This document shows positions 2,798 through 37,917 of a DNA stretch of 64,000 nt, piece after piece; positions within the stretch are counted from its first letter, which is position 1, and the number at the start of each line of letters is the position of its first letter. The notes below the pieces were generated by a model that made no database searches, was not told the DNA's origin, and saw only the letters and a list, made by a program, of their open reading frames with translations. Both the position numbers and the translations under genes were made by a program. Source of the DNA: a virus (taxonomy: Duplodnaviria > Heunggongvirae > Uroviricota > Caudoviricetes); IMG/VR virus record IMGVR_UViG_3300020451_002055. One strand, 5' to 3'.

Positions 2798-3118
2798 ATG
2801 AGTACGAATCTTTCAGACATGACGCCTGCCGAGCTTGATGCTGAGATCGGAAAGCTTGAAGCTCAGATTGAACACATCAAGCAGGTCAAATCTGAAGTTG
2901 AAAGTCTGACGCCTGCGCAGCAGCTTGCAACTGCTTTGCATAAGAGGCAATGCCGCCATAACCATACAGACGGTTGCGGATGGTATTACGAGAAGTGGAC
3001 TGACTGCCAAGGGAAATACTCATCAAAGAGAACCTGGGTCGAGAGAGCAGAAAAACTGCTCGCGACCGGTAAGTCAATGGAAGAGCTTATCGAGATCGCG
3101 GACCTGATGAGAGGATAG
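2798..3118 (+). CDS. hypothetical phage protein (CxxNHxDGC motif)
   Basis: Coiled-coil N-terminus, CRHNHTDGCGWYYE motif. Confidence 0.75.
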   Translation: MSTNLSDMTPAELDAEIGKLEAQIEHIKQVKSEVESLTPAQQLATALHKRQCRHNHTDGCGWYYEKWTDCQGKYSSKRTWVERAEKLLATGKSMEELIEIADLMRG

Positions 3119-4151
3119 GAGCAAAACCGACCCCTGATCCATTATAGTAACGGGTAGCAATCGATTGCTTGATTGGCAGCGGAACCTTCCGGCCAATCTG
3201 GCCGATAGCCGCCTGCACATCAATGATGCCGTTTCCGTATTTGGCATCTTTACCCGCATCACCTAGATCAATGGAGGTCTTTCTAAGATGCTCTCGAACG
3301 TCCTCGACCGTGTTGACCGGAGTTCTACCGCCGAACTTTCTATGCTTGGCAATCATCAGGGCAACAATACCCGTTATCCAAGGAGTCGCAAACGAGGTGC
3401 CCGACGATCGGCGGTATTCGCTGCCCGGAAACGTACTGCGAACGTCAACGCCGGGGGCGACGAAATCGAGGTTAGGGCCAGTGTTGCTGAAGTCTGCTTT
3501 CAGGACATCCCTATCGACAGCCCCTACCGCAATGGTCTCCCTGTAAGCAGCAGGCCAAACGACATCGCTATGCTCGTCGAGGCCGAAATTGCCCGCTGCG
3601 CAGATCATCGGGATGTCAGCTTCGTAAGCCCGGCGTACCGCATCGGTCAGCCAGGTATTGTTCGCGCTCATGTAGATCGAGAAGTTGATGATATCGACGC
3701 CATCGTCGATGGCCTGATGGATTCCATTCAGGATATCGTCGTAGCTTCCGCCTGCTTCGGCGTTGAGGCAACGGTAGGGTCTGACTTGAGCCTTCGGTGC
3801 AACTCCATGTACGCCGTGGCCGTTGCGTTTGGCACAGATGATGCCGGTAACGAACGTTCCGTGGCCGTGTTCATCCGACATCGGACTATCCGGGTTCACA
3901 AAAGCCTTACCCGGAAGAAGATTACCCGTCAAGTCAACATGATTGATGTCGCAACCGGAGTCGATGACTCCGACGACAACGCCCTCTCCTTCGGTCTGAT
4001 GCCAGACAGAAGGGACATGGTAGTTAGCGATCTGGTATGCGCTCTCGTTCTCCCAAGAACGAGGGTCCACGATGTCATCTGCTCCCGCAGCTTTGGCCGA
4101 GTAGTTCATGCCCTTCTTTTCTGTCTCAAGTACCTCCTTTCCTCCATGCAT
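3087..4151 (-). CDS. S8 (subtilisin-like) serine peptidase
   Basis: Catalytic motifs VIDSG, HGHGTFVTG, AAGN, SGTSFATP; start may be the ATG at 4109. Confidence 0.93.
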   Translation of the reverse strand: MHGGKEVLETEKKGMNYSAKAAGADDIVDPRSWENESAYQIANYHVPSVWHQTEGEGVVVGVIDSGCDINHVDLTGNLLPGKAFVNPDSPMSDEHGHGTFVTGIICAKRNGHGVHGVAPKAQVRPYRCLNAEAGGSYDDILNGIHQAIDDGVDIINFSIYMSANNTWLTDAVRRAYEADIPMICAAGNFGLDEHSDVVWPAAYRETIAVGAVDRDVLKADFSNTGPNLDFVAPGVDVRSTFPGSEYRRSSGTSFATPWITGIVALMIAKHRKFGGRTPVNTVEDVREHLRKTSIDLGDAGKDAKYGNGIIDVQAAIGQIGRKVPLPIKQSIATRYYNGSGVGFAPILSSGPRSR

Positions 4152-9402: not shown

Positions 9403-10518
9403 ATGCGTCTAATCGCCGCCATTGTCTTTCTCATCAGTTTCATCTCTCCCGCGATTGCGCAGGAAGAGGAAGTTCAGGACAGGAGAGCCGTCAAGGTCGC
9501 TGTCTATGAATCCGACCCGTTTGTTTCAAGGGCAGACGATGACTCGCTGACCGGATACGACATCGCTCTGATCGAGCAGATCGCATTCATCAATCAATGG
9601 AACATTTCCTATGTTCAGGTTGATAGGTTCAGCGACTTGCTTGAGAGAGTCGAAGACGAAGAAGTTGACATCGCCATCTCAAGCATCACGATCACGCCCG
9701 AAAGGGAACGATCGGTCGATTTCTCTCAACCCTATATGCATACGGGTCTTGGTATCCTTGTCTCCGAAGACAGAAGCACGACGATGAGCGAAGCAATCGG
9801 CTCATGGATTTCTACCAGAGTTCCTTTGGCGGTTGATTTGCTGACGATCTGCTTCTTCTTCATCATTGCTCTGATGTTTTGGGGCATCGTTCTTTACCTG
9901 ACTGATGAACAGCGGAAAGCTGATGCGGCTGATGAAGACGGACTGACTTTCATGGAAGTGGTTCGAGGTAGCGCGGATTCGATGTGGCTTGCCTTTACAA
10001 CCGGATCGACAATCGGCTACGGCGAAGTTTACCCGAGAAAGACCGCGGCTCGAATCACCGCTGTCTTCTGCTTCTTTACGGTTGCGATTCTCGTTAGCTC
10101 GCTGACCGCAACGATCACCTCATTCAACGTTGTTCAGCAGATCAACGTCGGCATCCAAGGCGCGGGCGATCTCAAGGGCAAGACTGTCGCAACGGTCGGA
10201 GGAACGACCAGCGTTTCTTCTGCCGCGAGGTACGGAGCCAACGTCGAGACATACGACAACATTGACCAGGCAATCGCTGCTGTCATTCTCGGGAATGCTG
10301 ACGCTGTTGTCTACGACGAGCCTCGACTGCGGTACTTCGCCAACAACCAAGGCAGGAACAAGGTCCGCTTGGTTGATACGGTCTTCGAGTCGCAGGACTA
10401 CGGCATTGCGTTCGTTCAAGGCAGCAATCTGCGGGAATCCGCCAACGTCGCCCTTCTTTCCATGCAAGACAAGGGCGAGTTGTCGGAGTTCGAGCATAGT
10501 TATTTCGGAGCGCCATGA
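9403..10518 (+). CDS. GluR0-like ligand-gated K+ channel (split solute-binding domain plus 2TM pore)
   Basis: Signal peptide, S1 lobe (PF..GYDI..ITITPER..VDFSQPY), TM-pore TIGYG-TM, S2 lobe (GTTS..VYDEP..YGIAF). Confidence 0.9.
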   Translation: MRLIAAIVFLISFISPAIAQEEEVQDRRAVKVAVYESDPFVSRADDDSLTGYDIALIEQIAFINQWNISYVQVDRFSDLLERVEDEEVDIAISSITITPERERSVDFSQPYMHTGLGILVSEDRSTTMSEAIGSWISTRVPLAVDLLTICFFFIIALMFWGIVLYLTDEQRKADAADEDGLTFMEVVRGSADSMWLAFTTGSTIGYGEVYPRKTAARITAVFCFFTVAILVSSLTATITSFNVVQQINVGIQGAGDLKGKTVATVGGTTSVSSAARYGANVETYDNIDQAIAAVILGNADAVVYDEPRLRYFANNQGRNKVRLVDTVFESQDYGIAFVQGSNLRESANVALLSMQDKGELSEFEHSYFGAP

Positions 10519-13495: not shown

Positions 13496-13523
13496 TTGAC
13501 AACCGCCGCAAGGCGGTTATTCT
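13496..13523 (+). promoter_or_regulatory. sigma70-like promoter of the ncRNA/tRNA operon, with a palindromic spacer
   Basis: TTGACA-N16-TATTCT; AACCGCC-GCAA-GGCGGTT inverted repeat spans the spacer. Confidence 0.6.
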
Positions 13524-13788
13524 TTGACCTCATGCCCTCGGTTGGGCATACGAAACGGAGTAGACTATGCGACCCGCCAACGACATCCCGAACCCCGCCA
13601 AGGGGACAGGGCCGTGCCTTGAAAAAGGCACAGTCGGCGTTGATCGCGCCTCCGTCGATAGCAGCGATCAACTCTGATACCTGCTCCCCTCCGACCAAAA
13701 ATCTGGTAAAGCTTGAAGGATTTTTCGCAGCTTTGCGTGAATCCTTACGCTACCCCTCAACTTCATGACGAAGTATAGGGACCGACGC

Positions 13789-13806
13789 AGCGACCTACCA
13801 ATCGCT
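13789..13806 (+). repeat. 18-nt hairpin repeat, copy 1
   Basis: AGCGA-CCTACCAA-TCGCT, identical at 16694-16711. Confidence 0.85.
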
Positions 13807-13859
13807 TAGTCAGAGACAAATACTGATCAGCAGGTGAAAGCCTGGTTTGGTATATTGCA

Positions 13860-13923
13860 GTTTGGGTTGAAGAATCAAGGTTATCTTGACAATGGCTCCT
13901 TGGTTCAACTCCCTTACCCAAAC
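13860..13923 (+). ncRNA. Y RNA-like #1 (minimal hairpin type)
   Basis: GTTTGGGT(T)GA pairs with TTACCCAAAC (bulged U); pyrimidine-rich bulge; GAATCAAGG/CCTTGGTTC; GGTTATC motif. Confidence 0.8.
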
Positions 13924-13928
13924 GTCAT

Positions 13929-14002
13929 CAGAGTGTAGCTCAGTTTGGCAGAGCGTCTGGTTCGGGGCCAGAAGGCCGGAGGTTCAAATCCTCTCACTCT
14001 GA
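13929..14002 (+). tRNA. tRNA-Pro(CGG)
   Basis: CAGAGTG/CACTCTG, TCTGG-TTCGGGG-CCAGA, GGTTCAAATCC. Confidence 0.93.
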
Positions 14003-14019
14003 CTTTTGAAAACTGAATA
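14003..14019 (+). promoter_or_regulatory. boxA-like antitermination motif
   Basis: CTTTTGAAAACTGAATA; recurs at 14877, 15360 and 15502. Confidence 0.6.
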
Positions 14020-14030
14020 AAGGACGAAGT

Positions 14031-14222
14031 ATGGATGCAAAGAGAGCATTGTTAGACGTAGCAGACCGGGCACTAACTCATCAGTTCATCATGTCGAAAA
14101 GACTGAAACCGGGTGAGTTCCTAGAACGGTATACTACGGCAGAAGAACGAGAAGCTTTGAAAGGCCTCAGGAGTGAGGACGCTCAAAGCCCTCTAAGACA
14201 CATGCTTGATTTGTATCGATGA
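14031..14222 (+). CDS. small hypothetical protein
   Basis: AAGGA RBS, 63 aa. Confidence 0.6.
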   Translation: MDAKRALLDVADRALTHQFIMSKRLKPGEFLERYTTAEEREALKGLRSEDAQSPLRHMLDLYR

Positions 14223-14227
14223 ACGTA

Positions 14228-14387
14228 GGAGGTTTGGGCAGTAAGTTGCGATGAGAACCGTTGCGATCCGGGGACTTGAGAGACTTACCTCTCCCCGGTC
14301 GAGACACCCCACATCGGCTGGCACGTTGCTCAACAGTTCGTTGGAAGTCGAGGTTTGGATACCTCGATAGACCAGCCTCAAACCTCC
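14228..14387 (+). ncRNA. orphan structured RNA (~160 nt)
   Basis: Closing helix GGAGGTTTGGG/CTCAAACCTCC; inner helices CCGGGGA/TCCCCGG and TCGAGGT/ACCTCGA; no credible ORF. Confidence 0.55.
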
Positions 14388-14403
14388 ACAACATAAGGAT
14401 CAG

Positions 14404-14598
14404 ATGATGCTTGGAAGCCTCATTAGCAAAGACACCGAAAGGCAGATCGCCGTAGCAGTTCGAGCGGCGAGCCTCGCTAAGGCAGCAGAATCTCTCGCAG
14501 TTGCGTCATCCAATGTCGCAGCCGCAGACGAGCGTCTCGCTCAAGACCTTCGGGTCACAGTCGGTCGTTTGCATGATGAAGTCAAAAGCCTCATCTGA
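14404..14598 (+). CDS. small hypothetical protein
   Basis: TAAGGA RBS, helical 64 aa. Confidence 0.6.
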   Translation: MMLGSLISKDTERQIAVAVRAASLAKAAESLAVASSNVAAADERLAQDLRVTVGRLHDEVKSLI

Positions 14599-14605
14599 TC
14601 CTAGA

Positions 14606-14679
14606 CAGGGCGTAGCTCAGCTTGGTAGAGCGTCTGGTTTGGGACCAGAAGGCCGCACGTTCGAATCGTGTCGCCCTGA
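14606..14679 (+). tRNA. tRNA-Pro(TGG)
   Basis: CAGGGCG/CGCCCTG, TCTGG-TTTGGGA-CCAGA, GTTCGAATC. Confidence 0.94.
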
Positions 14680-14683
14680 TTGA

Positions 14684-14887
14684 ATGGCAAGTATTTGTTC
14701 GAAACATCAAGAGTATGATCCGGATTGCGATCTATGCAAAGTAGACCTTTCTGATAGTCCTCTGTTTCAACAAATGCATGCCGAAGCAGAAGCAGCAGGC
14801 ACGCATGTCTGCGAGGAATGCAAGTTCCTCTATTACAAGACTGTCGATTCATGTCCGCTCTGCGGTCATCGACGGATTGACAACTGA
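14684..14887 (+). CDS. small zinc-finger protein
   Basis: CSKH, CDLC, CEEC, CPLC. Confidence 0.7.
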   Translation: MASICSKHQEYDPDCDLCKVDLSDSPLFQQMHAEAEAAGTHVCEECKFLYYKTVDSCPLCGHRRIDN

Positions 14888-14900
14888 ATAGACTTTTGAT

Positions 14901-15072
14901 CTGTAGGAACCTGTTTAGGCAGGGAAATAAGGCCGGTATTACCAAACCTCGGTACACGGTCGCGAGCCTGAGGAAGGCAAGCCTGTCGGAGTAAGCTCCC
15001 GATTCTGTCCAAGAGTAAGAGGTTGTGAGGACGAGCAGATCAAGCAGTCTACGGGATAAAACCCGTCTACTG
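14901..15072 (+). ncRNA. orphan structured RNA (~170 nt)
   Basis: Follows a boxA-like motif; hairpins CCTGT/GCAGG, AACCTC/GAGGTT, TCGGAG/CTCCCGA, ACGGG/CCCGT. Confidence 0.45.
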
Positions 15073-15078
15073 CTTTCA

Positions 15079-15138
15079 TGGGCTGAAGAGTCAAGGTTAA
15101 CTTGGTAATGTTGCACCCTTGCCTCACTAACTTGCCCA
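15079..15138 (+). ncRNA. Y RNA-like #2 (minimal hairpin type)
   Basis: TGGGC(T)GA/TTGCCCA; GAGTCAAGG/CCTTGCCTC; GGTTAAC motif. Confidence 0.8.
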
Positions 15139-15146
15139 GACAATCA

Positions 15147-15227
15147 AAGATCGGACTGAAGAATAGAAGGTTAACTTCAATTTTGATTTGAAACCCAACA
15201 CCCTTCATTCACTCCTTGTCCGTTCTT
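15147..15227 (+). ncRNA. Y RNA-like #3 (minimal hairpin type)
   Basis: CGGAC(T)GA/TTGTCCG; GAATAGAAGG/CCTTCATTC; GGTTAAC motif. Confidence 0.8.
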
Positions 15228-15230
15228 GTT

Positions 15231-15359
15231 AGCGACGTAGCTCAATTGGTAGAGCGCCTAAAAGGTCTTCAACCAACGCCTTACCCGGCACGGGTTGATG
15301 GAATTGAAGGTTATCGCATGTGGAGCGGGAGGTTGCAGGTTCGAGTCCTGTCGTCGCGA
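15231..15359 (+). ncRNA. Y RNA-like #4: tRNA scaffold with Ro module in the anticodon arm
   Basis: Acceptor GCGACG/CGTCGC, D arm GCTC-AATTGGTA-GAGC, T arm GCAGG-TTCGAGT-CCTGT; insert TTACCCG-GCA-CGGGT(T)GA, CTTCAA/TTGAAG, GGTTATC. Confidence 0.85.
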
Positions 15360-15377
15360 TTGAAAAACTGAATACAA

Positions 15378-15502
15378 CGCAACGTAGTTTAACGGCAAAA
15401 CACCTAAACATCGTTGTCCGCCCCTTACCCGATTCGGGTTGATGGAATTGACGGTTATCCTCTATCAAAGGGGTGATCCAGGTTCGAATCCTGGCGTTGC
15501 GT
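15378..15502 (+). ncRNA. Y RNA-like #5: tRNA scaffold with Ro module in the anticodon arm
   Basis: Acceptor CGCAACG/CGTTGCG, D arm GTTT/AAAC, T arm CCAGG-TTCGAAT-CCTGG; insert TTACCCG-ATT-CGGGT(T)GA, GGTTATC. Confidence 0.85.
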
Positions 15503-15523
15503 TTGAAAACTGAATAGACTTTT

Positions 15524-15626
15524 ACGGGTTGAATGCAATCGTTTATCGTTGGTTCAAGTCCAATCGCCGTTCTGCGGCGTAGCCCCAACTCAGGCGAGGG
15601 GCATTCGAGAGCAGTACCTTACCCGT
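15524..15626 (+). ncRNA. yrlA: Y RNA-like #6: canonical YrlA topology
   Basis: Ends form ACGGGT(T)GA/TTACCCGT; order is T arm (TTGG-TTCAAGT-CCAA), loop-closed acceptor stem CGCCG/CGGCG, then D arm GCCCC/GGGGC. Confidence 0.85.
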
Positions 15627-15630
15627 TTTT

Positions 15631-15761
15631 CGTGCAGTAGCTCAACAGGTAGAGCGGCAGTCAAAAAGGTCCATGACCGATTTGCTTGCTCGTTTCGAGT
15701 TGAAGGTTGATGGTTATCTATCGCAAAACTGCTTGTGGAGGTTCGAGTCCTTCCTGCACGA
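15631..15761 (+). ncRNA. Y RNA-like #7: tRNA scaffold with Ro module in the anticodon arm
   Basis: Acceptor CGTGCAG/CTGCACG, D arm GCTC/GAGC, anticodon-stem GCAGT/ACTGC, T arm GGAGG-TTCGAGT-CCTTC; insert TTGCTCG-TTT-CGAGT(T)GA, GGTTATC. Confidence 0.85.
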
Positions 15762-15764
15762 CTT

Positions 15765-15836
15765 CGCGGAGTGGAGAAGTAGTAACTCGCTTGGCTCATA
15801 ACCAAGAGATCGGTGGTGCAAATCCATCCTCCGCTA
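15765..15836 (+). tRNA. tRNA-Met(CAT), initiator-like
   Basis: C1 mismatch in CGCGGAG/CTCCGCT, CTTGG-CTCATAA-CCAAG; atypical T loop TGCAAAT. Confidence 0.85.
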
Positions 15837-15848
15837 TTTTGAACATTG

Positions 15849-16108
15849 CAGGCGATTCTGCGATCGCCGGTTAGGGTAAGATGCACGCAGCAGAAGGTTC
15901 CTAGGGATACCGAAGTGCGTCCGGCGGCAAAGAGAACGCAGAACTCTACCGTCGAGACGAGGACACATCTGCTAGAGAGCCAGGTGGGGAATCTGGTTGT
16001 AATGTTCAGAAGCATGACGAGCCGCTTGCGAGACGCAAGGGTTTCTGCAGAGATCGGACCGATCCTAGGCAAATCCTAGGGGTAGGCCCCAAACAGGAGT
16101 ATCGCCTG
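15849..16108 (+). ncRNA. orphan large structured RNA (~260 nt)
   Basis: Closing helix CAGGCGAT/ATCGCCTG; inner helices GATGCAC/GTGCGTC, AGCCAGGT/ATCTGGTT, TTGCG/CGCAA, CCTAGG/CCTAGG. Confidence 0.55.
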
Positions 16109-16181
16109 TTCTCGTCATTTCAACATACCCGGTTGACCTCTACCTGAAAGGGATACGTCAATAATGGCCGGGTTTACATTT

Positions 16182-16255
16182 GGGGATGTAGCTCAATTGA
16201 GTAGAGTGCCCGCCTGTCTAGCGGGTGGTTGAGGGTTCGAGTCCCTTCATCCTCG
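16182..16255 (+). tRNA. tRNA-Asp(GTC)
   Basis: GGGGATG/CATCCTC, CCCGC-CTGTCTA-GCGGG, GGTTCGAGTCC. Confidence 0.92.
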
Positions 16256-16268
16256 TTTGCCCAACTTT

Positions 16269-16340
16269 GGGGCGTTAGTTTAATCGGGAAAACCCCAGAC
16301 TGTCGATCTGGAATAGCGGGATCGAAACCCGCACGCCTCG
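16269..16340 (+). tRNA. tRNA-Asp(GTC)
   Basis: GGGGCGT/ACGCCTC, CCAGA-CTGTCGA-TCTGG, T arm GCGGG-ATCGAAA-CCCGC. Confidence 0.88.
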
Positions 16341-16361
16341 TTCTTACTCAGGAGACTCGCA

Positions 16362-16454
16362 ATGGACAATACCCCATTCTACAAACGATCCGCCTTCTGG
16401 AAAGGCGTTGCGTTTGGAGTCGTTGCCGGATTCCTCTTCGTGTTCCTTGCATGA
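16362..16454 (+). CDS. 30-aa single-TM small protein
   Basis: AGGAG RBS; MDNTPFYKRSAFWKGVAFGVVAGFLFVFLA*. Confidence 0.65.
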   Translation: MDNTPFYKRSAFWKGVAFGVVAGFLFVFLA

Positions 16455-16484
16455 AAGTGAAGAAGTCTTCCGATATCCTATGAC

Positions 16485-16714
16485 ATCGGCTACTCCGTAA
16501 CGATCTGCAACGCGGAGGTGCAAGCGAGGCTGAGGTAATCAGGAGGAACCTCGCTTGTAAAAGTCGCTGATTTGATTGAAGGTGCAGACAGTTGCTCGGC
16601 TAGGGACGCCTAAGTCGCCATCGGATGAAAGGGCCGGAAGCAGCTTTTCGTGAATCAGTAATGCTGGTTCTTAGTTGTTGACGAAACGACTGTAGCGACC
16701 TACCAATCGCTGCA
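16485..16714 (+). ncRNA. orphan structured RNA / leader of the Ro60 operon
   Basis: ORF-free; TGCAAGCGAGG/CCTCGCTTGTA, CTCCG/CGGAG; ends in the repeated AGCGACCTACCAATCGCT hairpin. Confidence 0.45.
16694..16711 (+). repeat. 18-nt hairpin repeat, copy 2
   Basis: Identical to 13789-13806. Confidence 0.85.
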
Positions 16715-16731
16715 CATTTTGGGATTGAGCA

Positions 16732-17244
16732 ATGCTGCTCGACAGTCTTAGGCCAACTCAATGCGGTCTTCGATACGTTGATCAGATTGCAAGCATGGTC
16801 GAGTTTGTCCGATCAGGCGGTGTCTTCTCGCAAGAAGCTCTGCTGAGGTTTGCGGAGGCAAACAATCATGAGCCGGACAACCTCATTCAGGTTCGTCGGT
16901 TTGAGGATGGGACTCACTTTATCCATGACGGGCACCATAGATGCCTTTCGATCTGGCTTGCCGGACGAGAGAACCTTGATGCCCAAGAATTTGATTTGTC
17001 TATCTGGCATTACCACCAGTATGGAGAGATCAACTTTGATGCGGGTTATGTGACACCACATGACCCGAGAGAAGAAACCCGATACGCCGACTTCTTTGGA
17101 TTCAAGTCGGAAGCTCGGAAGATTGCAGAAACTTCGGTCGAAGAAGCGATCGAGTTCATCAGAGGAAACAGGTCTCGTTACTGCGAGCCGCGGACCTGTT
17201 GGCATGTAAGAGATTTGGCCGCAACCTTGCCTCTAAGAGGCTGA
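16732..17244 (+). CDS. ParB/sulfiredoxin-like domain protein
   Basis: LRPTQ...I.V.....FIHDGHHR motif. Confidence 0.75.
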   Translation: MLLDSLRPTQCGLRYVDQIASMVEFVRSGGVFSQEALLRFAEANNHEPDNLIQVRRFEDGTHFIHDGHHRCLSIWLAGRENLDAQEFDLSIWHYHQYGEINFDAGYVTPHDPREETRYADFFGFKSEARKIAETSVEEAIEFIRGNRSRYCEPRTCWHVRDLAATLPLRG

Positions 17245-17262
17245 AAGAAGGAGGATCGAAAG

Positions 17263-18933
17263 ATGGCATACACGAAGCACTTCAGCGCAAAGAAGACCCC
17301 GCAGAACGTCCCGACTCCGGGGAAGAACCAGAAGAAGAACAACGCGGGCGGTTACGTCTATGAGATCACTCCTTGGGATCGCTTGCAGCGATTCCTGATC
17401 CTAGGCTCCGAGGGCGGCTCGTACTACGTCGGCGAGCGTAAGCTCACCGTCGATAACGCGAACTGCGTAATCGATTGCCTCAAGGAGGACGGTCGTCGCG
17501 TCGTGGACATGATCGTGGAGATTTCGGATGCGGGTCGCGCCGCTAAGAACACTCCGGCTCTGTTCGCGCTGGCTCTCGCTGCATCGGCGGATGAGCTTGA
17601 GACCCGCAAGTACGCGCTCGCAAACCTCTCGAAGGTTGCGCGTATCGGTACTCACCTCTTCGAGTTCGCGCAGTTCGTCAACCAGTTCCGTGGTTGGGGT
17701 CGTAACCTCAAGGAGTCGATCGCTAACTGGTACCTTGACATGGACGCAGAGCGTCTGGCCTACCAGGTCGTCAAGTACCCGCAGCGCACGACCGAGGAGG
17801 GCGACAGCCTGTCGGTATGGTCGCACCGCGACCTGCTCCGTAAGGTCCGCCCGAGCAACGTCAAGGGAGATCACAACAAGATCTTCGGCTATGTAACTCA
17901 GGGATGGGACACCATCCCGAGCCGTAGCCCGAAGGCTTTGCAGATCATCCGCGGAACCGAGAAGATCAAGCGAGCAAAGAGCGCAGATGAGGCCGCAGGT
18001 CTCATCGAGGAGTTCTCGTTGCCGCACGAGGTTGTTCCGAAGGAGTTCTCGGGAGATCCGAAGGTTCTCACCGCCCTCCTGCAGAGCATGCCGTTGACTG
18101 CGACGATGCGTAACCTTGGTCGCTTGACCGCGCGAGGCGTTCTTGTCCCGATGGGCAAGGAGACCTCGATGGTTATCGATCGCCTGACGGATGAGGACTA
18201 CATCCGCAAGAGCAGGATCCACCCGATCAACGTTCTTGCGGCTCTGAAGACCTACTCGCAGGGCTCAGGTCACCGCGGAAGCATGTCTTGGCAGCCGATT
18301 CAGCCGATCGTCGATGCTCTCGACTCGATGCTCTACAAGAGCTTCGGGAACATCGAGCCGACCGGCAAGAAGATTCTCATTGCCCTCGATGTTTCGGCGT
18401 CGATGGACTGGGACGGCTGCTCGGGCTTGAGCCAGATTACTCCGCGCGAGGCTTCGGCTGTCATGTCCATGGCAACCGCTCGCGTTGAGAAGAACTACCA
18501 CATCGTCGCTTTCTCAAGCGGCGGTTGGTCGAGAGGCTCGGGCCGTAGTCGCTACGGTTGGGGCTCGGGTATCCAGGATGTGGCGATCTCGCCTCGTCAG
18601 CGTTTGGACTCGGTAGTTAGCACCGTTTCTAGCCTGCCAGCAGGCGGAACCGACTGCGCTTTGCCGATGCTCTACGCTACCGAGAAGGGAATGGACATCG
18701 ACGCATTCGTTGTCTACACGGACAACGATACCTGGGCAGGAGACATCCACGCGGATCAGGCACTCAGAGAGTACCGCCGAAAGTTCAACCCGGAGGCGAA
18801 GCTCATTGTTGCCGGAACCGCATCGACCGAGTTCTCGATCGCTGACCCGAGCGATCCGGGCATGCTCGATGTTGTCGGATTCGACTCGTCGGCTCCGAGC
18901 GTCATCTCCTCGTTCATTCGAGGCATGGACTAA
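17263..18933 (+). CDS. rsr: Ro60 / TROVE-vWA RNA-binding protein
   Basis: NNAGGY, RFLILGSEGGSYY, RGWGR, WSHRDLLR, MP.TA.RNL, R.HP, vWA DVSAS, GGTDCALP, VYTDNDT, GMLDVVGFD. Confidence 0.97.
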   Translation: MAYTKHFSAKKTPQNVPTPGKNQKKNNAGGYVYEITPWDRLQRFLILGSEGGSYYVGERKLTVDNANCVIDCLKEDGRRVVDMIVEISDAGRAAKNTPALFALALAASADELETRKYALANLSKVARIGTHLFEFAQFVNQFRGWGRNLKESIANWYLDMDAERLAYQVVKYPQRTTEEGDSLSVWSHRDLLRKVRPSNVKGDHNKIFGYVTQGWDTIPSRSPKALQIIRGTEKIKRAKSADEAAGLIEEFSLPHEVVPKEFSGDPKVLTALLQSMPLTATMRNLGRLTARGVLVPMGKETSMVIDRLTDEDYIRKSRIHPINVLAALKTYSQGSGHRGSMSWQPIQPIVDALDSMLYKSFGNIEPTGKKILIALDVSASMDWDGCSGLSQITPREASAVMSMATARVEKNYHIVAFSSGGWSRGSGRSRYGWGSGIQDVAISPRQRLDSVVSTVSSLPAGGTDCALPMLYATEKGMDIDAFVVYTDNDTWAGDIHADQALREYRRKFNPEAKLIVAGTASTEFSIADPSDPGMLDVVGFDSSAPSVISSFIRGMD

Positions 18934-18959: not shown

Positions 18960-18995
18960 AAAGGGGCTTCCCGTTAGGGAGGCCCCTTTTTTTTT
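18960..18995. terminator. bidirectional terminator between convergent genes
   Basis: AAAAGGGGCTTCCC/GGGAGGCCCCTTTT with T run. Confidence 0.85.
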
Positions 18996-35259: not shown

Positions 35260-37917
35260 TTATACACGCTCAATAAGGGCGCTGGTTTCGACTTCGTTCA
35301 GATCGAACTCAGACTCTTCTCCGCCATCCCAGCGAACAAGCACCTTATTACCTTTCTTTCGGACAATTTTGCCTTCGCGTTGAGGGAAAGCAAGACCGCT
35401 GTTGCGACTTCTAACTCTATCGCCCGAGTTGAATCGACTATTCTCTCCCGGCTCGTAGTAGATCATTCGCTTTTCGCCTTCATGACGAGTAAGCTCTGGC
35501 TCTCCCGCCTGACCCGGAGGGTCGTATCCATCCGTCGAAGTGGCAGAACTCGCGTCTGCTTTGATATTCTTGTACCAATTTGAAGCCATAGTTGGACCTC
35601 CGTATCTAGATTCGATGTCAGAGCGTATGCTCTCTACAAAGGTCTCAGCCTGCATAGGATCGGCTATATTACCTGCTCCCTGCTCATCGAGAAGCCTCTG
35701 ATGTATATCTCGGATGAAACCGCTCTTAGGACTTAGAGTTGGGAAAAGTTCCATGAGTCTCCTCCCATCAACTAGCGGCTTCATGGGAGGCGGAGCAGCC
35801 ATATACTCTTCCATGCGAGAAAAACGATCGCCATATTCAGTTGCGTCATCGAGCGTTGAGACATCAGACTTGGCAGCGGCATCTGCCTGAGCATGCCATA
35901 TAACGAGCTTCCAAAGGTCATCTCGACCTTCTTGACCAGGTATAGTTGTCTTTTCTCTAAGCTTGCCCATTTGCCGCTTGCCCCAACTCTGACCATGAGC
36001 ATGCGGATACATGTGCTGCTGAACTATCATATTGACAATCTCTCGATCATCTCCTCCTATGCCGATGCTCTTGAGGAACTTTTCTGATAGCTCAGCGGAT
36101 ACATCTTCATGTCCGCGATAAGTCATATGATCAGGATTGCCATCCTTCGGTTGAGCGATCTCTGGATGCAGCTTGCCGAAGTCATGGAACCATGCGGCTA
36201 TCAGAGCAAGAGACCTATCTTTGCCATCGACTCCATTTTGAGCCATGACATCGTTGAGGTTCTTGACAACCTTTAGTGTATGCTCAAGCCAGTTGAGTTG
36301 ATGGTTTGGATTCCTTTGGTCCATCGTCGGCTCGCTAAGACCCTCAAACTCTGGCATATTCAGAAGAGCAGAATACATGCCAGTATCATAAAGGATACGG
36401 AGAGACGCCTCCGGAGTTGCTCCGTTGAACATCTTCATAATCTCCGGACCTGCTCGTTCTGGGGAGACCTTTGTCCTGTATGCTTCATGAACCTGAGGAT
36501 CAGACATTCCAGCTACAGTTTCCGGAGCTATCTGAGAACCCTCGTAGCGACTATGGAAACGAAGGACTCGCAGCATACGCAGCGGATCGTCGAGGAATGT
36601 CTGCGTAGGATCAAGAGGAGTGCGCAGAGTCAAAGTCTGCAAGTCTTGAAGGCCTCCAACGTAATCTTCTACTTGCCCGGTTCCGATGTTATAGAAGAGA
36701 GAGTTGATGGTCAAGTCTCTCCTGCGAGCATCTTCTTCTGGCGTGCCCGGCTTCATTTCCGGTATGCGACTATCAGAAGCATAGTCCTCTGTTCTTAGAT
36801 TCACGAAGTCGATCTTGAACGGACCGATCTGTATCGCCGTTGTTTCAAGATGCTTAGATGCATCAGGATTTTGATCTACAACGTAGCTCTTGCCTATGCC
36901 AGAGTTCGGGTTCTGTTGAGCATACTGTTCTGCGTACTTGCGAAACTCTTGTCCGGTCATCTTGTCAAGGGCGATGTCGATATCATCGCTTTGGGTTCCG
37001 AGCAAACGATCCCTAACCCAACCTCCGGCTACTCGGTATTGCTGACCAAGATTGAACTGCTGATCAATCGCTAGTATCGTTGAAAAGACCTGTTGCTCTT
37101 CCGCGGTAAGACTAAGACTCGGCGCTTGCTGAGCCGTCTTTACGGTAAAATCCGAGCTAGCCTCCTTCACGATCGTTCCCCAAAAGCCTGAATGCAGCCA
37201 ATACTCAGCAGAATACCTAGCTGGCTTTCTTTGTTCCTTGCTATCCGGATGTCGGTCCCACCTGAGAGACAAAGCTCTTTTGACTGCATCAAACTCGCTC
37301 TCAGCTACGATCTCTTCAACGATACGAAGAGCAGGCAGGTTGATGATATACTTCCGCTTTTCGCCCTTAGACTGAGCTACTTTCATTCGCTCAATACCCG
37401 GAGGACTGATCTGGTTATGAACGGGCACGGAAGAATTGATATCGGCAACGATCTTGCGGACTTGTTCTTCCGGTCCCTGCCTAGTAACAAGTATGCCAGT
37501 CACTCGGTTCTTGACATCAAGATGGCATCCCTTGCAAAGTATCGAGCCTCCAGCGACAACGCTATCCTCTAGATCGCTGATATCAATCATCAAAAAGCAC
37601 TTATAGGCCTTGACCAGGCTCGATGCTGCTTGAGGGGAGAAAAGGACAAGCGGAGCGGCATGACATACGAGATTATCTTCGAGAATGTCTCTTAGGTCAA
37701 CCGGGTCAAAAGGGAATAGACCGCTCTTGTAAGACTTAGAGCCAGAAAAAAGCGTATCAAAGAAGTGTCTTGGGGCAGATGCGACAGACGATTCTATTCC
37801 TCTGTACGCAAACAAACCGCAAGCCATACGGCTTGCGTCGTCTCTATCAAAGCCTCCGCTCGACCTAGAAGCTCCAATCGAGCGGATGATATCTATCAGT
37901 TCATCTGTCTCTTTCAT
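35260..37917 (-). CDS. cca: CCA-adding tRNA nucleotidyltransferase with HD domain and N-/C-terminal extensions
   Basis: VAGGWVRD.LLG..SDDIDIA, RRDLTINSLFY, DDPLRMLR, ER, EHT..V, WFHDFGK. Confidence 0.93.
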   Translation of the reverse strand: MKETDELIDIIRSIGASRSSGGFDRDDASRMACGLFAYRGIESSVASAPRHFFDTLFSGSKSYKSGLFPFDPVDLRDILEDNLVCHAAPLVLFSPQAASSLVKAYKCFLMIDISDLEDSVVAGGSILCKGCHLDVKNRVTGILVTRQGPEEQVRKIVADINSSVPVHNQISPPGIERMKVAQSKGEKRKYIINLPALRIVEEIVAESEFDAVKRALSLRWDRHPDSKEQRKPARYSAEYWLHSGFWGTIVKEASSDFTVKTAQQAPSLSLTAEEQQVFSTILAIDQQFNLGQQYRVAGGWVRDRLLGTQSDDIDIALDKMTGQEFRKYAEQYAQQNPNSGIGKSYVVDQNPDASKHLETTAIQIGPFKIDFVNLRTEDYASDSRIPEMKPGTPEEDARRRDLTINSLFYNIGTGQVEDYVGGLQDLQTLTLRTPLDPTQTFLDDPLRMLRVLRFHSRYEGSQIAPETVAGMSDPQVHEAYRTKVSPERAGPEIMKMFNGATPEASLRILYDTGMYSALLNMPEFEGLSEPTMDQRNPNHQLNWLEHTLKVVKNLNDVMAQNGVDGKDRSLALIAAWFHDFGKLHPEIAQPKDGNPDHMTYRGHEDVSAELSEKFLKSIGIGGDDREIVNMIVQQHMYPHAHGQSWGKRQMGKLREKTTIPGQEGRDDLWKLVIWHAQADAAAKSDVSTLDDATEYGDRFSRMEEYMAAPPPMKPLVDGRRLMELFPTLSPKSGFIRDIHQRLLDEQGAGNIADPMQAETFVESIRSDIESRYGGPTMASNWYKNIKADASSATSTDGYDPPGQAGEPELTRHEGEKRMIYYEPGENSRFNSGDRVRSRNSGLAFPQREGKIVRKKGNKVLVRWDGGEESEFDLNEVETSALIERV

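What the first reader, a model, noticed from the sequence alone, without database searches (positions are those of the whole stretch)
13860..18933. Phage Ro60 system with an array of seven Y RNAs in three topologies
Seen: seven elements upstream of a Ro60/TROVE gene share the same bulged helix with compensatory changes: GGGU(U)GA/UUACCC (four copies), GGGC(U)GA/UUGCCC, GGAC(U)GA/UUGUCC and GAGU(U)GA/UUGCUC. Each also has an internal bulge, a second helix (clearest in five) and a conserved G(G/U)UUA(U/A)C. Established: the Ro-binding helix of Y RNAs has this geometry (GGUC(C)GA/UUGACU), and bacterial Y RNA genes lie beside rsr. Three copies are minimal hairpins (13860, 15079, 15147), one is canonical YrlA (15524), and three are tRNA-shaped (15231, 15378, 15631). 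Inference: one Ro60 ring with interchangeable RNA adaptors, forming a modular RNP platform for RNA repair, decay or decoying of host defences. The bulged base is U rather than C in every copy, which suggests a co-evolved, phage-specific Ro60.
Basis: partly seen in the sequence, partly recalled or inferred. Interest (0 to 1): 0.95.

Follow-up and report, generated by a model that had tools for sequence, protein, structure and literature searches.

The report
Seven Y RNAs beside phage Ro60
A large phage carries, inside a tRNA operon just ahead of its gene for the RNA-binding ring protein Ro60, seven small RNA genes that all bear the Ro60 docking helix in three different layouts, and both the RNAs and the protein carry a matched change at the known contact point.

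Summary
Seven elements (13860-15761, + strand) share a 5-8 bp helix with one bulged U, a G-U/A-U step, an asymmetric internal loop, a second helix and G(G/U)UUA(U/A)C. They lie 1.5-3.4 kb upstream of a bona fide Ro60 gene (17263-18933). Shuffled windows give about one such site, at most four.

The same module occurs beside Ro60 genes in about 80 of 136 other phage and metagenome loci, almost only on the Ro60 strand, with compensatory changes in both helices. Three layouts are real: minimal hairpins (YrlB-like), one YrlA-like RNA, and three tRNA-ordered RNAs with open acceptor ends. The third layout is widespread in phages and bacteria. I found no paper on it, but this scan has noted it before on other DNA.

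The bulged U is matched by Arg196 in place of the Y-RNA-contacting His187. Across loci, C goes with His (65 of 70) and U with Lys, Arg or Gly (9 of 10 lineages; one exception). This supports co-evolution, but the U type also occurs in bacteria, so it is not phage-specific.

An eighth copy of the helix lies in the Ro60 mRNA leader. Function remains inferred. This is a new variant of a known kind.

The parts
13860..13923 (+). E1, minimal Y RNA (YrlB-like hairpin): 8-bp helix 1 with bulged U13868, helix 2 AAUCAAGG/CCUUGGUU, GGUUAUC; its 3' end lies 5 nt before tRNA-Pro
   Evidence: aligned with 36 homologous minimal elements, covariation in both helices
13929..14003 (+). tRNA-Pro(CGG), first tRNA of the operon that holds the array (also tRNA-Pro(UGG) 14606-14679, tRNA-Met 15764-15837, tRNA-Asp 16181-16256 and 16268-16341)
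   Evidence: ARAGORN; Rfam tRNA
15079..15138 (+). E2, minimal Y RNA: UGGGC(U)GA/UUGCCCA, helix 2 GAG-U-CAAGG/CCUUG-C-CUC, GGUUAAC
15152..15222 (+). E3, minimal Y RNA with a longer apical part: CGGAC(U)GA/UUGUCCG, helix 2 GAAU-A-GAAGG/CCUUC-AUUC, GGUUAAC
15231..15360 (+). E4, tRNA-ordered Y RNA: open 6-7 bp acceptor stem, D arm, Y arm (helix 2 plus UUACCCG-GCA-CGGGU(U)GA), short hairpin UCGC-AUGUGGA-GCGG in anticodon-arm geometry, T arm
   Evidence: CM R1 109.9 bits; RNAalifold on A3; ARAGORN with the intron option; hairpin analysis
15378..15502 (+). E5, tRNA-ordered Y RNA of the same build as E4 (UUACCCG-AUU-CGGGU(U)GA; relic hairpin AUCCU-CUAUCAA-AGGGG)
   Evidence: CM R1 99.8 bits
15524..15630 (+). 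E6, YrlA-layout Y RNA: terminal helix ACGGGU(U)GA/UUACCCGU, helix 2, UUUAUC, T arm, closed acceptor-like hairpin, D arm; U4 tail
   Evidence: global alignment to Rfam YrlA, 27.6 bits, E 2e-4 in a 136-nt search, below the gathering score of 69; the MFE fold gives exactly this layout
15631..15761 (+). E7, tRNA-ordered Y RNA of a second build: a 5-bp anticodon stem GCAGU/ACUGC encloses the Y module (UUGCUCG-UUU-CGAGU(U)GA); abuts tRNA-Met
   Evidence: Rfam tRNA 49.4 bits with a 65-nt insert in the anticodon loop; CM R1 99.9 bits
16732..17244 (+). 170-aa ParB/sulfiredoxin-fold protein (invariant DGHHR motif), conserved directly upstream of Ro60 in this clade; candidate protein partner
   Evidence: tblastn in 9 related loci; alignment A7; Pfam ParBc_2 weak; AF2 pLDDT 88.7 and Foldseek hits to the ParB/Srx fold only, E 5e-3 and weaker
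17227..17244 (+). Eighth copy of the bulged helix, UUGCCUC-UAA-GAGGC(U)GA, in the Ro60 mRNA leader next to the AAGGAGG ribosome-binding site; lacks helix 2 and GGUUAUC
   Evidence: L081 has UUGCCUC-AAC-GAGGC(C)GA at the same place, so its bulge follows its locus type. 6 of 131 loci have such a helix within 45 nt of the start against 0.75 expected
17263..18933 (+). Ro60 (TROVE ring plus vWA/MIDAS), 556 aa, with Arg196 at the position of vertebrate His187
   Evidence: Pfam; PDB 1yvp, 9nen, 2nvo; residue mapping
18960..18989 (+). Strong intrinsic-terminator-like hairpin (13 bp, then a T run) that ends the unit
15503..15516 (+). One of four copies of TTGAMAACTGAATA (also 14006, 14877, 15360), each 3-10 nt upstream of an RNA or ORF start; promoter-like or processing signal, also present in relatives L003 and L005

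Best explanation
The region is a phage tRNA/Y-RNA operon that ends in a ParB/Srx-fold gene and Ro60. It encodes seven Y RNAs, small RNAs whose shared bulged helix is the docking site for the outer face of the Ro60 ring. Shown: the shared module, its covariation, its strand-specific linkage to Ro60 genes, and the matched change of the bulged base (C to U) and the contact residue (His187 position to Arg196). Inferred: the RNAs are cut out of polycistronic precursors, largely by the tRNA-processing enzymes. RNase P cutting at the 5' end of each tRNA or tRNA-ordered unit would also make the 3' end of the unit before it. The three tRNA-ordered RNAs would receive CCA from the phage's own CCA-adding enzyme. 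Each RNA would bind one Ro60 through helix 1, while its variable part (plain loop, closed tRNA mimic, or whole tRNA body with free ends) selects what the particle touches. By analogy with Ro60-Y RNA-PNPase particles in Deinococcus, Salmonella and Thermus phage phiLo, the likeliest job is to gate Ro60 and tether it to host 3'-5' exoribonucleases or tRNA-handling enzymes, so that structured or damaged RNA is handled during infection. The helix in the Ro60 leader probably lets surplus Ro60 repress its own translation.
For: Ro60 identity. Seven copies against about 1 expected. The motif corresponds to the published GNCGAAN0-1G Rsr motif and the conserved YUAY (PMC4201824). E6 aligns end to end with Rfam YrlA. 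Module anchors number 365 on the Ro60 strand against 80 on the other strand in 136 loci; with a helix of at least 5 bp, 134 against 9. Covariation in minimal RNAs: 93% of cells paired against 62% when shuffled, and helix 2, which was not used to select them, is 86% paired with double changes in 6 of 7 pairs. tRNA-ordered RNAs: acceptor, D, helix 2, Ro helix and T stems all covary. The CM finds them in about 38 of 136 phage or metagenome loci and 13 of 26 bacterial loci. Bulge type against the residue at the His187 position: C with His in 54 of 57 and U with non-His in 10 of 10 in the first set. This was repeated in bacterial genomes (2 U with Lys; 11 C with His, 2 C with Gly). U lineages are scattered on the Ro60 tree, each next to C/His sisters. 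His187 and the bulged C9 are the reported contact pair (PMC4030889, PMC11277228). Polycistronic tRNA-Y RNA precursors, and RNase P cleavage with CCA addition on a Y RNA, are known (PMC4201824). The CCA-adding enzyme is at 35260-37917.
Against: There are no expression, processing or binding data. No element reaches any Rfam Y RNA threshold. Single-sequence folds of E4, E5 and E7 are only weakly better than shuffles (z -1.1 to -2.4). In animal Y RNAs, mutation of the bulged C abolishes binding, and H187S abolishes Y RNA binding, so on its own a U/Arg pair could mean a decayed system. One U-type locus (L250) keeps His, and two Arg loci are C type, so the rule is statistical, not strict. The effector and the biological role are analogy only.
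Confidence: 0.8

Rival explanations
1. E4, E5 and E7 are ordinary phage tRNA genes interrupted by an intron-like or inserted sequence, or are decaying tRNA pseudogenes. E1-E3 and E6 are unrelated hairpins, and nothing here binds Ro60.
For: Rfam tRNA scores E7 at 49.4 bits with a 65-nt insert. ARAGORN with the intron option calls all three. E4 and E5 keep a hairpin with a 7-nt loop and U at position 2, in anticodon-arm geometry. The window holds many tRNAs.
Against: The 'insert' is the same module as in the four non-tRNA copies. It covaries in about 60 tRNA-ordered RNAs from many loci. It is tied to Ro60 genes and strand. It matches the published Ro60-binding motif. In E4 and E5 it lies between the D arm and the anticodon-like hairpin, where no known tRNA intron sits. 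Several relic 'anticodons' begin with A (AUC, AUU), which is unusual for decoding tRNAs. No group I or II intron or splicing signature was found by Rfam.
Confidence: 0.06
2. The shared helix is a cis-acting signal of the tRNA operon, such as an RNase III or RNase E processing site, an attenuator or a protein operator, and is read by some factor other than Ro60. Its linkage to Ro60 is only shared operon ancestry.
For: The elements lie between tRNAs and abut them. An eighth copy lies in an mRNA leader. A repeated TTGAMAACTGAATA motif shows that the operon has its own punctuation.
Against: The bulge base changes together with the Ro60 residue that contacts Y RNA, in at least seven independent lineages. 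This is hard to explain if Ro60 does not read the helix. The module occurs beside Ro60 in loci that have no tRNAs at all. It matches the experimentally defined Ro60 site of animals and Deinococcus (PMC4201824, PMC4030889).
Confidence: 0.08
3. The copies are a short mobile or recombination-prone repeat (REP- or MITE-like) that has recently spread within this operon, with no RNA-level function.
For: Seven to eight copies lie within 3.4 kb; E4 and E5 share identical helix 1 strands.
Against: The copies are divergent outside the invariant positions and differ by compensatory pairs (A-U, C-G and U-A at one helix 2 position in E4, E5 and E7). Orthologous copies sit at syntenic positions in phages whose Ro60 is only 57-72% identical. 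All copies are on one strand.
Confidence: 0.02

Closest known systems
YrlA (Rfam RF02553): tRNA-like Y RNA of Salmonella, Mycobacterium smegmatis and mycobacteriophages (Chen et al. 2014, PMC4201824; structure preprint 10.1101/312249)
   Same: Encoded within 4 kb of Ro60 on the same strand. Has a 5' Ro motif followed by a second helix and YUAY. Carries a tRNA elbow (T and D arms). E6 has the same order: Ro stem, T arm, closed acceptor-like hairpin, D arm.
   Different: The motif has U where YrlA has C (GYUGA against GNCGA). Both strands of the Ro helix are recognisable, as in Deinococcus and animals. E6 scores 27.6 bits against a gathering score of 69. E4, E5 and E7 are the circular permutation of YrlA: acceptor ends open, Ro helix capped by a 3-nt loop.
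YrlB / Yrn2: short hairpin Y RNAs of Salmonella, M. smegmatis and Deinococcus (PMC4201824)
   Same: E1-E3 are plain long hairpins with the Ro motif and no tRNA-like domain. They are co-encoded with a tRNA-like Y RNA and with tRNAs, as Yrn2 is made from one precursor with tRNA-Asp and Yrn1.
   Different: There are three such copies here rather than one, each with the conserved GGUUAWC after helix 2. Sequence relationship to YrlB was not tested, because no YrlB sequence was available to me.
Thermus phage phiLo Ro60 with Yrl1 and Yrl2 (PMC12135203)
   Same: A phage-encoded Ro60 with more than one Y-like RNA gene just upstream. Binding was shown there by EMSA and cryo-EM, and a ternary complex with host PNPase was reported.
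   Different: phiLo has two hairpin RNAs with the CGAA motif. Here there are seven RNAs in three layouts, with UGAA and a changed contact residue. That paper reports no tRNA-ordered form.
Animal Y RNAs with Ro60 (bulged C9 and His187; PMC4030889, PMC11277228)
   Same: The same helix geometry: about 8 bp, one bulged pyrimidine, a G-U/A-U step, an asymmetric internal loop and an upper stem. The protein is 40-45% similar over its full length, with the MIDAS motif intact.
   Different: The bulged base is U rather than C, and the His is Arg. The RNAs are made from a phage tRNA operon, not by RNA polymerase III.
Class II tRNAs and tRNA-like RNAs with free ends (tmRNA, viral TLS)
   Same: E4, E5 and E7 have five arms in the order acceptor, D, long arm, short arm, T. 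The elbow nucleotides are conserved and the acceptor ends are open, so they could be cut by RNase P and receive CCA.
   Different: The long arm is a Ro60-binding module, not an anticodon arm. No evidence of aminoacylation or decoding exists.

Membership tests
Ro60 / TROVE protein | TROVE HEAT-repeat ring domain followed by a vWA domain | tested here: met
   PF05731 2.3e-30 and PF25045 1.3e-58; full-length match to 1yvp, 9nen and 2nvo
Ro60 / TROVE protein | MIDAS motif DxSxS...T...D in the vWA domain | tested here: met
   DVSAS, GGTDC and YTDN align with the human and Xenopus motifs
Ro60 / TROVE protein | Conserved His (His187 of vertebrates) reported as essential for Y RNA contact | tested here: not met
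   WSHRDLLRKVR196 against WSHKDLLRLSH187; the profile alignment puts the column on His187. The change correlates with the U bulge
YrlA (RF02553) | Encoded within about 4 kb of Ro60 on the same strand | tested here: met
   All seven lie 1.5-3.4 kb upstream on the + strand
YrlA (RF02553) | 5' motif GNCGAAN0-1G | tested here: not met
   GUUGAAG, GCUGAAG, GUUGAUG and GUUGAAU: U in place of C in all seven
YrlA (RF02553) | tRNA-like domain in the order T arm, closed acceptor-like stem-loop, D arm, enclosed by the Ro stem | tested here: met
   Met for E6 only. E4, E5 and E7 have the permuted order with open acceptor ends. E1-E3 lack the domain
YrlA (RF02553) | Score at or above the Rfam gathering threshold (69 bits) | tested here: not met
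   No hit at gathering; E6 scores 27.6 bits in a narrow search. The 23.4-bit hit at 15327-15407 is the T arm of E4 plus the D arm of E5, the artefact that Chen et al. filtered out
YrlA (RF02553) | Bound by Rsr/Ro60 and modified by TruB and DusA in vivo | not testable with these tools
   Needs experiments
Y RNA in the broad sense (Ro60-binding bulged helix) | Helix with a single bulged pyrimidine, then G-U and A-U pairs, an internal loop and an upper helix | tested here: met
   (covariation in both helices)
Y RNA in the broad sense (Ro60-binding bulged helix) | The bulged base is cytosine (C9) | tested here: not met
   U in all seven and in the leader copy. C in the closest relative L081 and in most loci
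Y RNA in the broad sense (Ro60-binding bulged helix) | Match to Rfam Y_RNA (RF00019) | tested here: not met
   No hit at E up to 10 in 13500-17300
tRNA (for E4, E5, E7) | Acceptor, D and T stems with U8, A14, G18G19 and the GUUCRA T loop | tested here: met
   sequence read
tRNA (for E4, E5, E7) | Anticodon stem-loop directly following the D arm, total length 72-90 nt | tested here: not met
   A 55-65 nt Y arm lies between the D arm and a relic hairpin (E4, E5) or replaces the loop (E7). E4 and E5 are not called by Rfam tRNA at gathering

The most novel reading that the evidence does not exclude
The C-to-U bulge with His187-to-Arg/Lys is a natural specificity switch that makes this phage's Ro60 and its Y RNAs a pair insulated from C/His-type systems. 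The tRNA-ordered Y RNAs, an undescribed class with open acceptor ends, are matured like tRNAs (RNase P, CCA, perhaps charging). They carry Ro60 to tRNA-handling machinery such as host anticodon nucleases, repair enzymes or ribosomes. Ro60 also represses its own mRNA through a leader copy of the helix.
Probability: 0.2. Interest if true: 0.85.

Novelty: new variant of a known kind. Interest (0 to 1): 0.7.

Why it matters
Ro60 and Y RNAs are conserved from bacteria to humans and Ro60 is a major autoantigen, yet it is still unclear what the variable part of a Y RNA recruits and how the protein reads the bulged helix. This locus offers three handles. First, one protein has seven natural partner RNAs that differ only in the effector end, which is a ready-made comparison set. 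Second, tRNA-ordered Y RNAs are the un-rotated counterpart of YrlA. They make the tRNA origin of bacterial Y RNAs concrete: two tandem copies already contain a YrlA-order unit across their junction. They also raise the testable possibility of CCA addition. Third, there is a repeated natural double change, bulge C to U with His187 to Lys or Arg. It points to the base-specific contact and could be used to build orthogonal Ro60-RNA pairs. For phage biology it adds to the case, made for Thermus phage phiLo, that large phages bring their own RNA-surveillance particle.

Tried and rejected
The contigs of the closest Ro60 homologues (P0002-P0008, 70-77% identity) could therefore not be fetched, and the prediction that Arg forms go with U and His forms with C could not be tested in them.
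- A single-protein scan of viral contigs found no relative; alignment-based scans were needed.
- Rfam at gathering thresholds finds only tRNAs. A permissive scan of 3.8 kb finds no Y RNA family apart from the artefactual 23-bit YrlA hit across E4 and E5.
- A positive control failed. Rfam YrlA at gathering also finds nothing within 4 kb of the Ro60 gene of mycobacteriophage Daffodil, so Rfam silence is weak evidence.
- A pattern scan of IMG/VR for U-type modules returned mostly chance hits. Only 1 of 120 loci held a Ro60 (L250), and that one broke the rule.
- Reading the bulge base from the CM alignment A4 failed because of insert columns; I used the descriptor calls instead.
- Two apparent U/His loci (L018, L038) and two 'mixed' calls (L005, L081) proved to be descriptor artefacts on inspection.
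- Single-sequence MFE folds do not recover the consensus for E4, E5 and E7; the structure rests on comparison.
- The reviews PMC10870794, PMC6542706 and PMC6047535, and Burroughs and Aravind 2016, are not held. My statement that the tRNA-ordered class is unpublished covers only what I could search.
- I considered tRNA introns, processing signals and mobile repeats (see rivals) and rejected them.

Full report
WHAT IS THERE. The window looks like part of a large phage or a metagenomic phage contig. No host genome is held for it. It encodes a clamp loader, a CCA-adding enzyme with an HD domain, NAMPT, Hsp20 and 11 tRNAs. The ORF at 17263-18933 is a full-length Ro60: Pfam TROVE 2e-30 and vWA_Ro60 1e-58, and E 6e-113 to Xenopus Ro60 1yvp, with similar matches to human Ro60 and Deinococcus Rsr. 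Its MIDAS motif is intact. A strong terminator-like hairpin follows at 18960-18989.

THE SEVEN ELEMENTS.
- Each has helix 1 of 5-8 bp, one bulged U, a G-U/A-U step (GA opposite UU), and an asymmetric internal loop (1 nt against 5-7 nt).
- Each then has helix 2, followed by GGUUAUC, GGUUAAC or GUUUAUC.
- In E1, E2, E3 and E6 the 5' strand of helix 1 comes first. In E4, E5 and E7 the 3' strand comes first and a 3-nt loop closes the helix.
- A descriptor for the module finds 7 sites on the + strand, all within 13868-15701, and 1 on the - strand. Block-shuffled windows give 0.96 on average and never more than 4.
- The copies are divergent paralogues. One helix 2 position reads A-U, C-G and U-A in E4, E5 and E7.

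LINK TO Ro60 ELSEWHERE. I collected 156 Ro60 loci from IMG/VR and metagenomes, of which 136 are non-redundant, and 26 loci from bacterial genomes.
- The sequence anchor alone ([CU]GA, 5-16 nt, G[GU]UUA[UA]C) occurs 365 times on the Ro60 strand and 80 times on the other strand. With a helix of at least 5 bp the counts are 134 and 9.
- Seventy-nine of the 136 loci have at least one element. The usual number is 1-4, and this window has the most found by this conservative scan.
- For 37 minimal elements aligned by plain MAFFT, RNAalifold recovers both helices. Cells are 93% paired against 62% when shuffled and 40-47% when slid.
- Helix 2 played no part in selecting the sequences. It is 86% paired, with double changes in 6 of 7 pairs.
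- The motif corresponds to the GNCGAAN0-1G Rsr motif and the conserved YUAY of Chen et al. 2014.

THE THREE LAYOUTS.
- E1-E3 are plain hairpins, like YrlB and Yrn2.
- E6 has the YrlA order: Ro stem, helix 2, YUAY, T arm, closed acceptor-like hairpin, D arm. It aligns end to end with Rfam YrlA, but at 27.6 bits against a gathering score of 69. Its MFE fold gives this layout.
- E4, E5 and E7 are tRNA-ordered, with an open acceptor stem, a D arm and a T arm that keep the elbow nucleotides, and the Y module inside.
- Rfam tRNA calls E7 with a 65-nt insert, and ARAGORN calls all three only when introns are allowed.

HOW COMMON THE tRNA-ORDERED FORM IS.
- Ten such RNAs from eight loci, aligned by MAFFT, give an RNAalifold consensus with acceptor, D, helix 2, Ro helix and T stems. 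Twenty of 26 pairs show compensatory change.
- A covariance model built from them finds long hits (115-150 nt, at least 55 bits) in about 38 of the 136 loci and in 13 of 26 bacterial loci. One is in the complete genome of Desulfonema magnum, and its MFE fold reproduces the whole five-arm structure.
- On the model-fitted alignment, helix 2 is 88% paired and the Ro helix 94% paired across about 60 RNAs. That alignment leans towards the model.

A REFINEMENT OF THE tRNA-ORDERED FORM.
- In E4 and E5 the AUC of GGUUAUC opens a 4-5 bp hairpin with a 7-nt loop and U at loop position 2. The hairpin ends about 30 nt from the 3' end, which is anticodon-arm geometry. The Y arm therefore sits between the D arm and a relic anticodon arm.
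- The same holds in 18 of 31 model hits that carry the strict GGUUAUC motif, against 4.7 in shuffled controls.
- In E7, and in L017, a long-range 5-bp anticodon stem encloses the module instead.
- YrlA has been described as a circularly permuted tRNA with a closed acceptor stem (10.1101/312249). These RNAs are its un-permuted form.
- Chen et al. discarded YrlA hits that overlapped tandem tRNAs. The weak YrlA hit at 15327-15407 is exactly the T arm of E4 plus the D arm of E5. That filter may explain why the class was missed. It also shows how a tandem pair could give rise to the YrlA order.

THE U BULGE AND Arg196.
- The bulged cytosine (C9) is described as the primary Ro60 site, and His187 as essential for Y RNA contact. 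H187S loses Y RNA binding (PMC4030889, PMC11277228).
- Here every copy has U, and the Ro60 reads WSHRDLLRKVR196 where vertebrates read WSHKDLLRLSH187. A profile alignment puts the column on His187.
- The bulge type is a property of the locus. Among loci with at least two good elements, 28 are all C, 8 are all U, and at most 4 are mixed, partly through artefacts.
- In the cross-tabulation, C type goes with His in 54 loci, Arg in 2 and Ser in 1. U type goes with Lys in 7, Arg in 2, Gly in 1 and His in 0.
- On a quick Ro60 tree the credible U lineages are scattered, and each sits beside C/His sisters. The window's sister, L081 (72% identity), is C/His. A lineage-level Fisher test gives p = 4e-6.
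- In bacterial genomes chosen only by Ro60 similarity, the two U-type loci both have Lys (a Thiotrichaceae MAG, and Desulfonema magnum with five U-type RNAs). Eleven C-type loci have His and two have Gly.
- One counter-example exists: L250, found by searching for U-type RNA, has four U-type elements and keeps His.
- Arg is ambiguous, with 2 U-type and 2 C-type loci.
- The association is therefore strong but not absolute, and it is not phage-specific.

AN EIGHTH COPY IN THE LEADER.
- UUGCCUC-UAA-GAGGC(U)GA lies at 17227-17244, directly before the AAGGAGG site of Ro60.
- L081 has the same stem at the same place with a bulged C, which matches its own RNA type.
- Six of 131 loci have such a helix within 45 nt of the start, against 0.75 expected.
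- I read this as a probable operator for translational autoregulation, at about 40-50%. The fold itself is not unusually stable.

CONTEXT AND PROCESSING.
- E1 ends 5 nt before tRNA-Pro. E3 ends about 8 nt before E4. E6 runs into E7, and E7 ends 2 nt before tRNA-Met. RNase P cuts at tRNA-like 5' ends would therefore release neighbouring 3' ends. This is inference, but it parallels the Deinococcus Yrn2-tRNA-Asp-Yrn1 precursor.
- A motif, TTGAMAACTGAATA, precedes four units.
- None of the tRNA or tRNA-ordered genes I read through (tRNA-Pro 13929-14003, E4, E5, E7) encodes CCA, and the phage has its own CCA-adding enzyme.
- A 170-aa ParB/sulfiredoxin-fold protein with an invariant DGHHR motif is conserved directly upstream of Ro60 throughout this clade. 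It is a candidate partner.

COMPARISON AND NOVELTY.
- Already in print: phage Ro60 genes; YrlA in 22 phages; more than one Y RNA per locus; tRNA mimicry; and a phage Ro60 that binds two Y-like RNAs and PNPase (PMC4201824, PMC12135203).
- Not found in any paper I could search: the tRNA-ordered class; the coupling of a U bulge with a non-His residue; the leader copy; and an array of this size that combines all three layouts. Several reviews were not available, so this is a limited claim.
- This scan has already noted tRNA-ordered Y RNAs beside Ro60 on other DNA (e1-5974474, e1-5529253, e1-5798639, e1-5676524) and on this same stretch (first-reader notes e1-5683126 and e1-5683149). That part is therefore not new to the scan. 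I re-derived it here independently.

VERDICT. It is a new variant of a known kind, with interest 0.7.

Noticed in passing
window 14891-15035 (promoter-like motif at 14877-14890; terminator-like hairpin 15042-15077): ORF-free element about 145 nt long, 82% identical to L005:4071-4233 although the Ro60 proteins are only 57% identical. It shows compensatory changes (CCUG/CAGG against CCCG/CGGG; GGCCG/CGGUC against GAUCG/CGAUC). There is no credible Rfam match at E up to 10 (only a chance-level 7-bit lncRNA hit). It is a candidate new structured RNA inside the tRNA/Y-RNA operon.
   Followed up: partly
window 16732-17244 (+): 170-aa protein with an invariant RFEDG..F.HDGHHR motif, conserved immediately upstream of Ro60 in nine related loci. 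The AF2 model (pLDDT 88.7) matches only ParB/sulfiredoxin-fold structures, and weakly. It may be the enzymatic partner of the Ro60 particle.
   Followed up: partly
window 14006, 14877, 15360, 15503 (+): Four copies of TTGAMAACTGAATA, each a few bases upstream of an RNA or small-ORF start. Similar motifs occur in L003, L005 and L081. This is a phage promoter or a processing signal; the spacing does not fit a sigma-70 promoter.
   Followed up: partly
window 15838-16180 and 14229-14389 (+): Two further ORF-poor stretches inside the operon. The second has long-range pairing GGAGGUUUG...CAAACCUCC. Short pieces of the first are conserved in L081. No Rfam match was found.
   Followed up: no
window 15327-15407: The weak Rfam YrlA hit (23.4 bits) spans the T arm of E4, the spacer and the D arm of E5. 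Two tandem tRNA-ordered units thus already contain a YrlA-order unit across their junction, which suggests that YrlA arose by duplication and permutation.
   Followed up: partly
L284 (Desulfonema magnum chromosome NZ_CP061800.1), 2995-3790: A cultured bacterium carries five U-bulge Y RNAs, several of them tRNA-ordered (best 101 bits), upstream of an rsr gene with Lys at the His187 position. It is a tractable organism for testing the C/U and His/Lys rule.
   Followed up: partly
L250 (IMG/VR contig), about 700-1150 on the Ro60 strand: Four U-bulge elements lie beside a Ro60 that keeps His at the contact position. This is the one clear exception to the covariation.
   Followed up: partly
L036 and L069, about 5826-5898 in L069: A fourth layout: ARAGORN calls a 73-nt 'tRNA-His' in which the Ro 5' motif GAGCCGAAG...GGUUAUC takes the place of the D arm, next to an ordinary T arm.
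   Followed up: no
window 35260-37917 (-): 885-aa CCA-adding or poly(A) polymerase-family enzyme with an HD domain and an unexplained N-terminal extension of about 290 aa.
   Followed up: no
window 9403-10518 (+): Phage-encoded protein that combines a periplasmic solute-binding domain with an ion-channel domain, like a glutamate-receptor-type ligand-gated channel.
   Followed up: no
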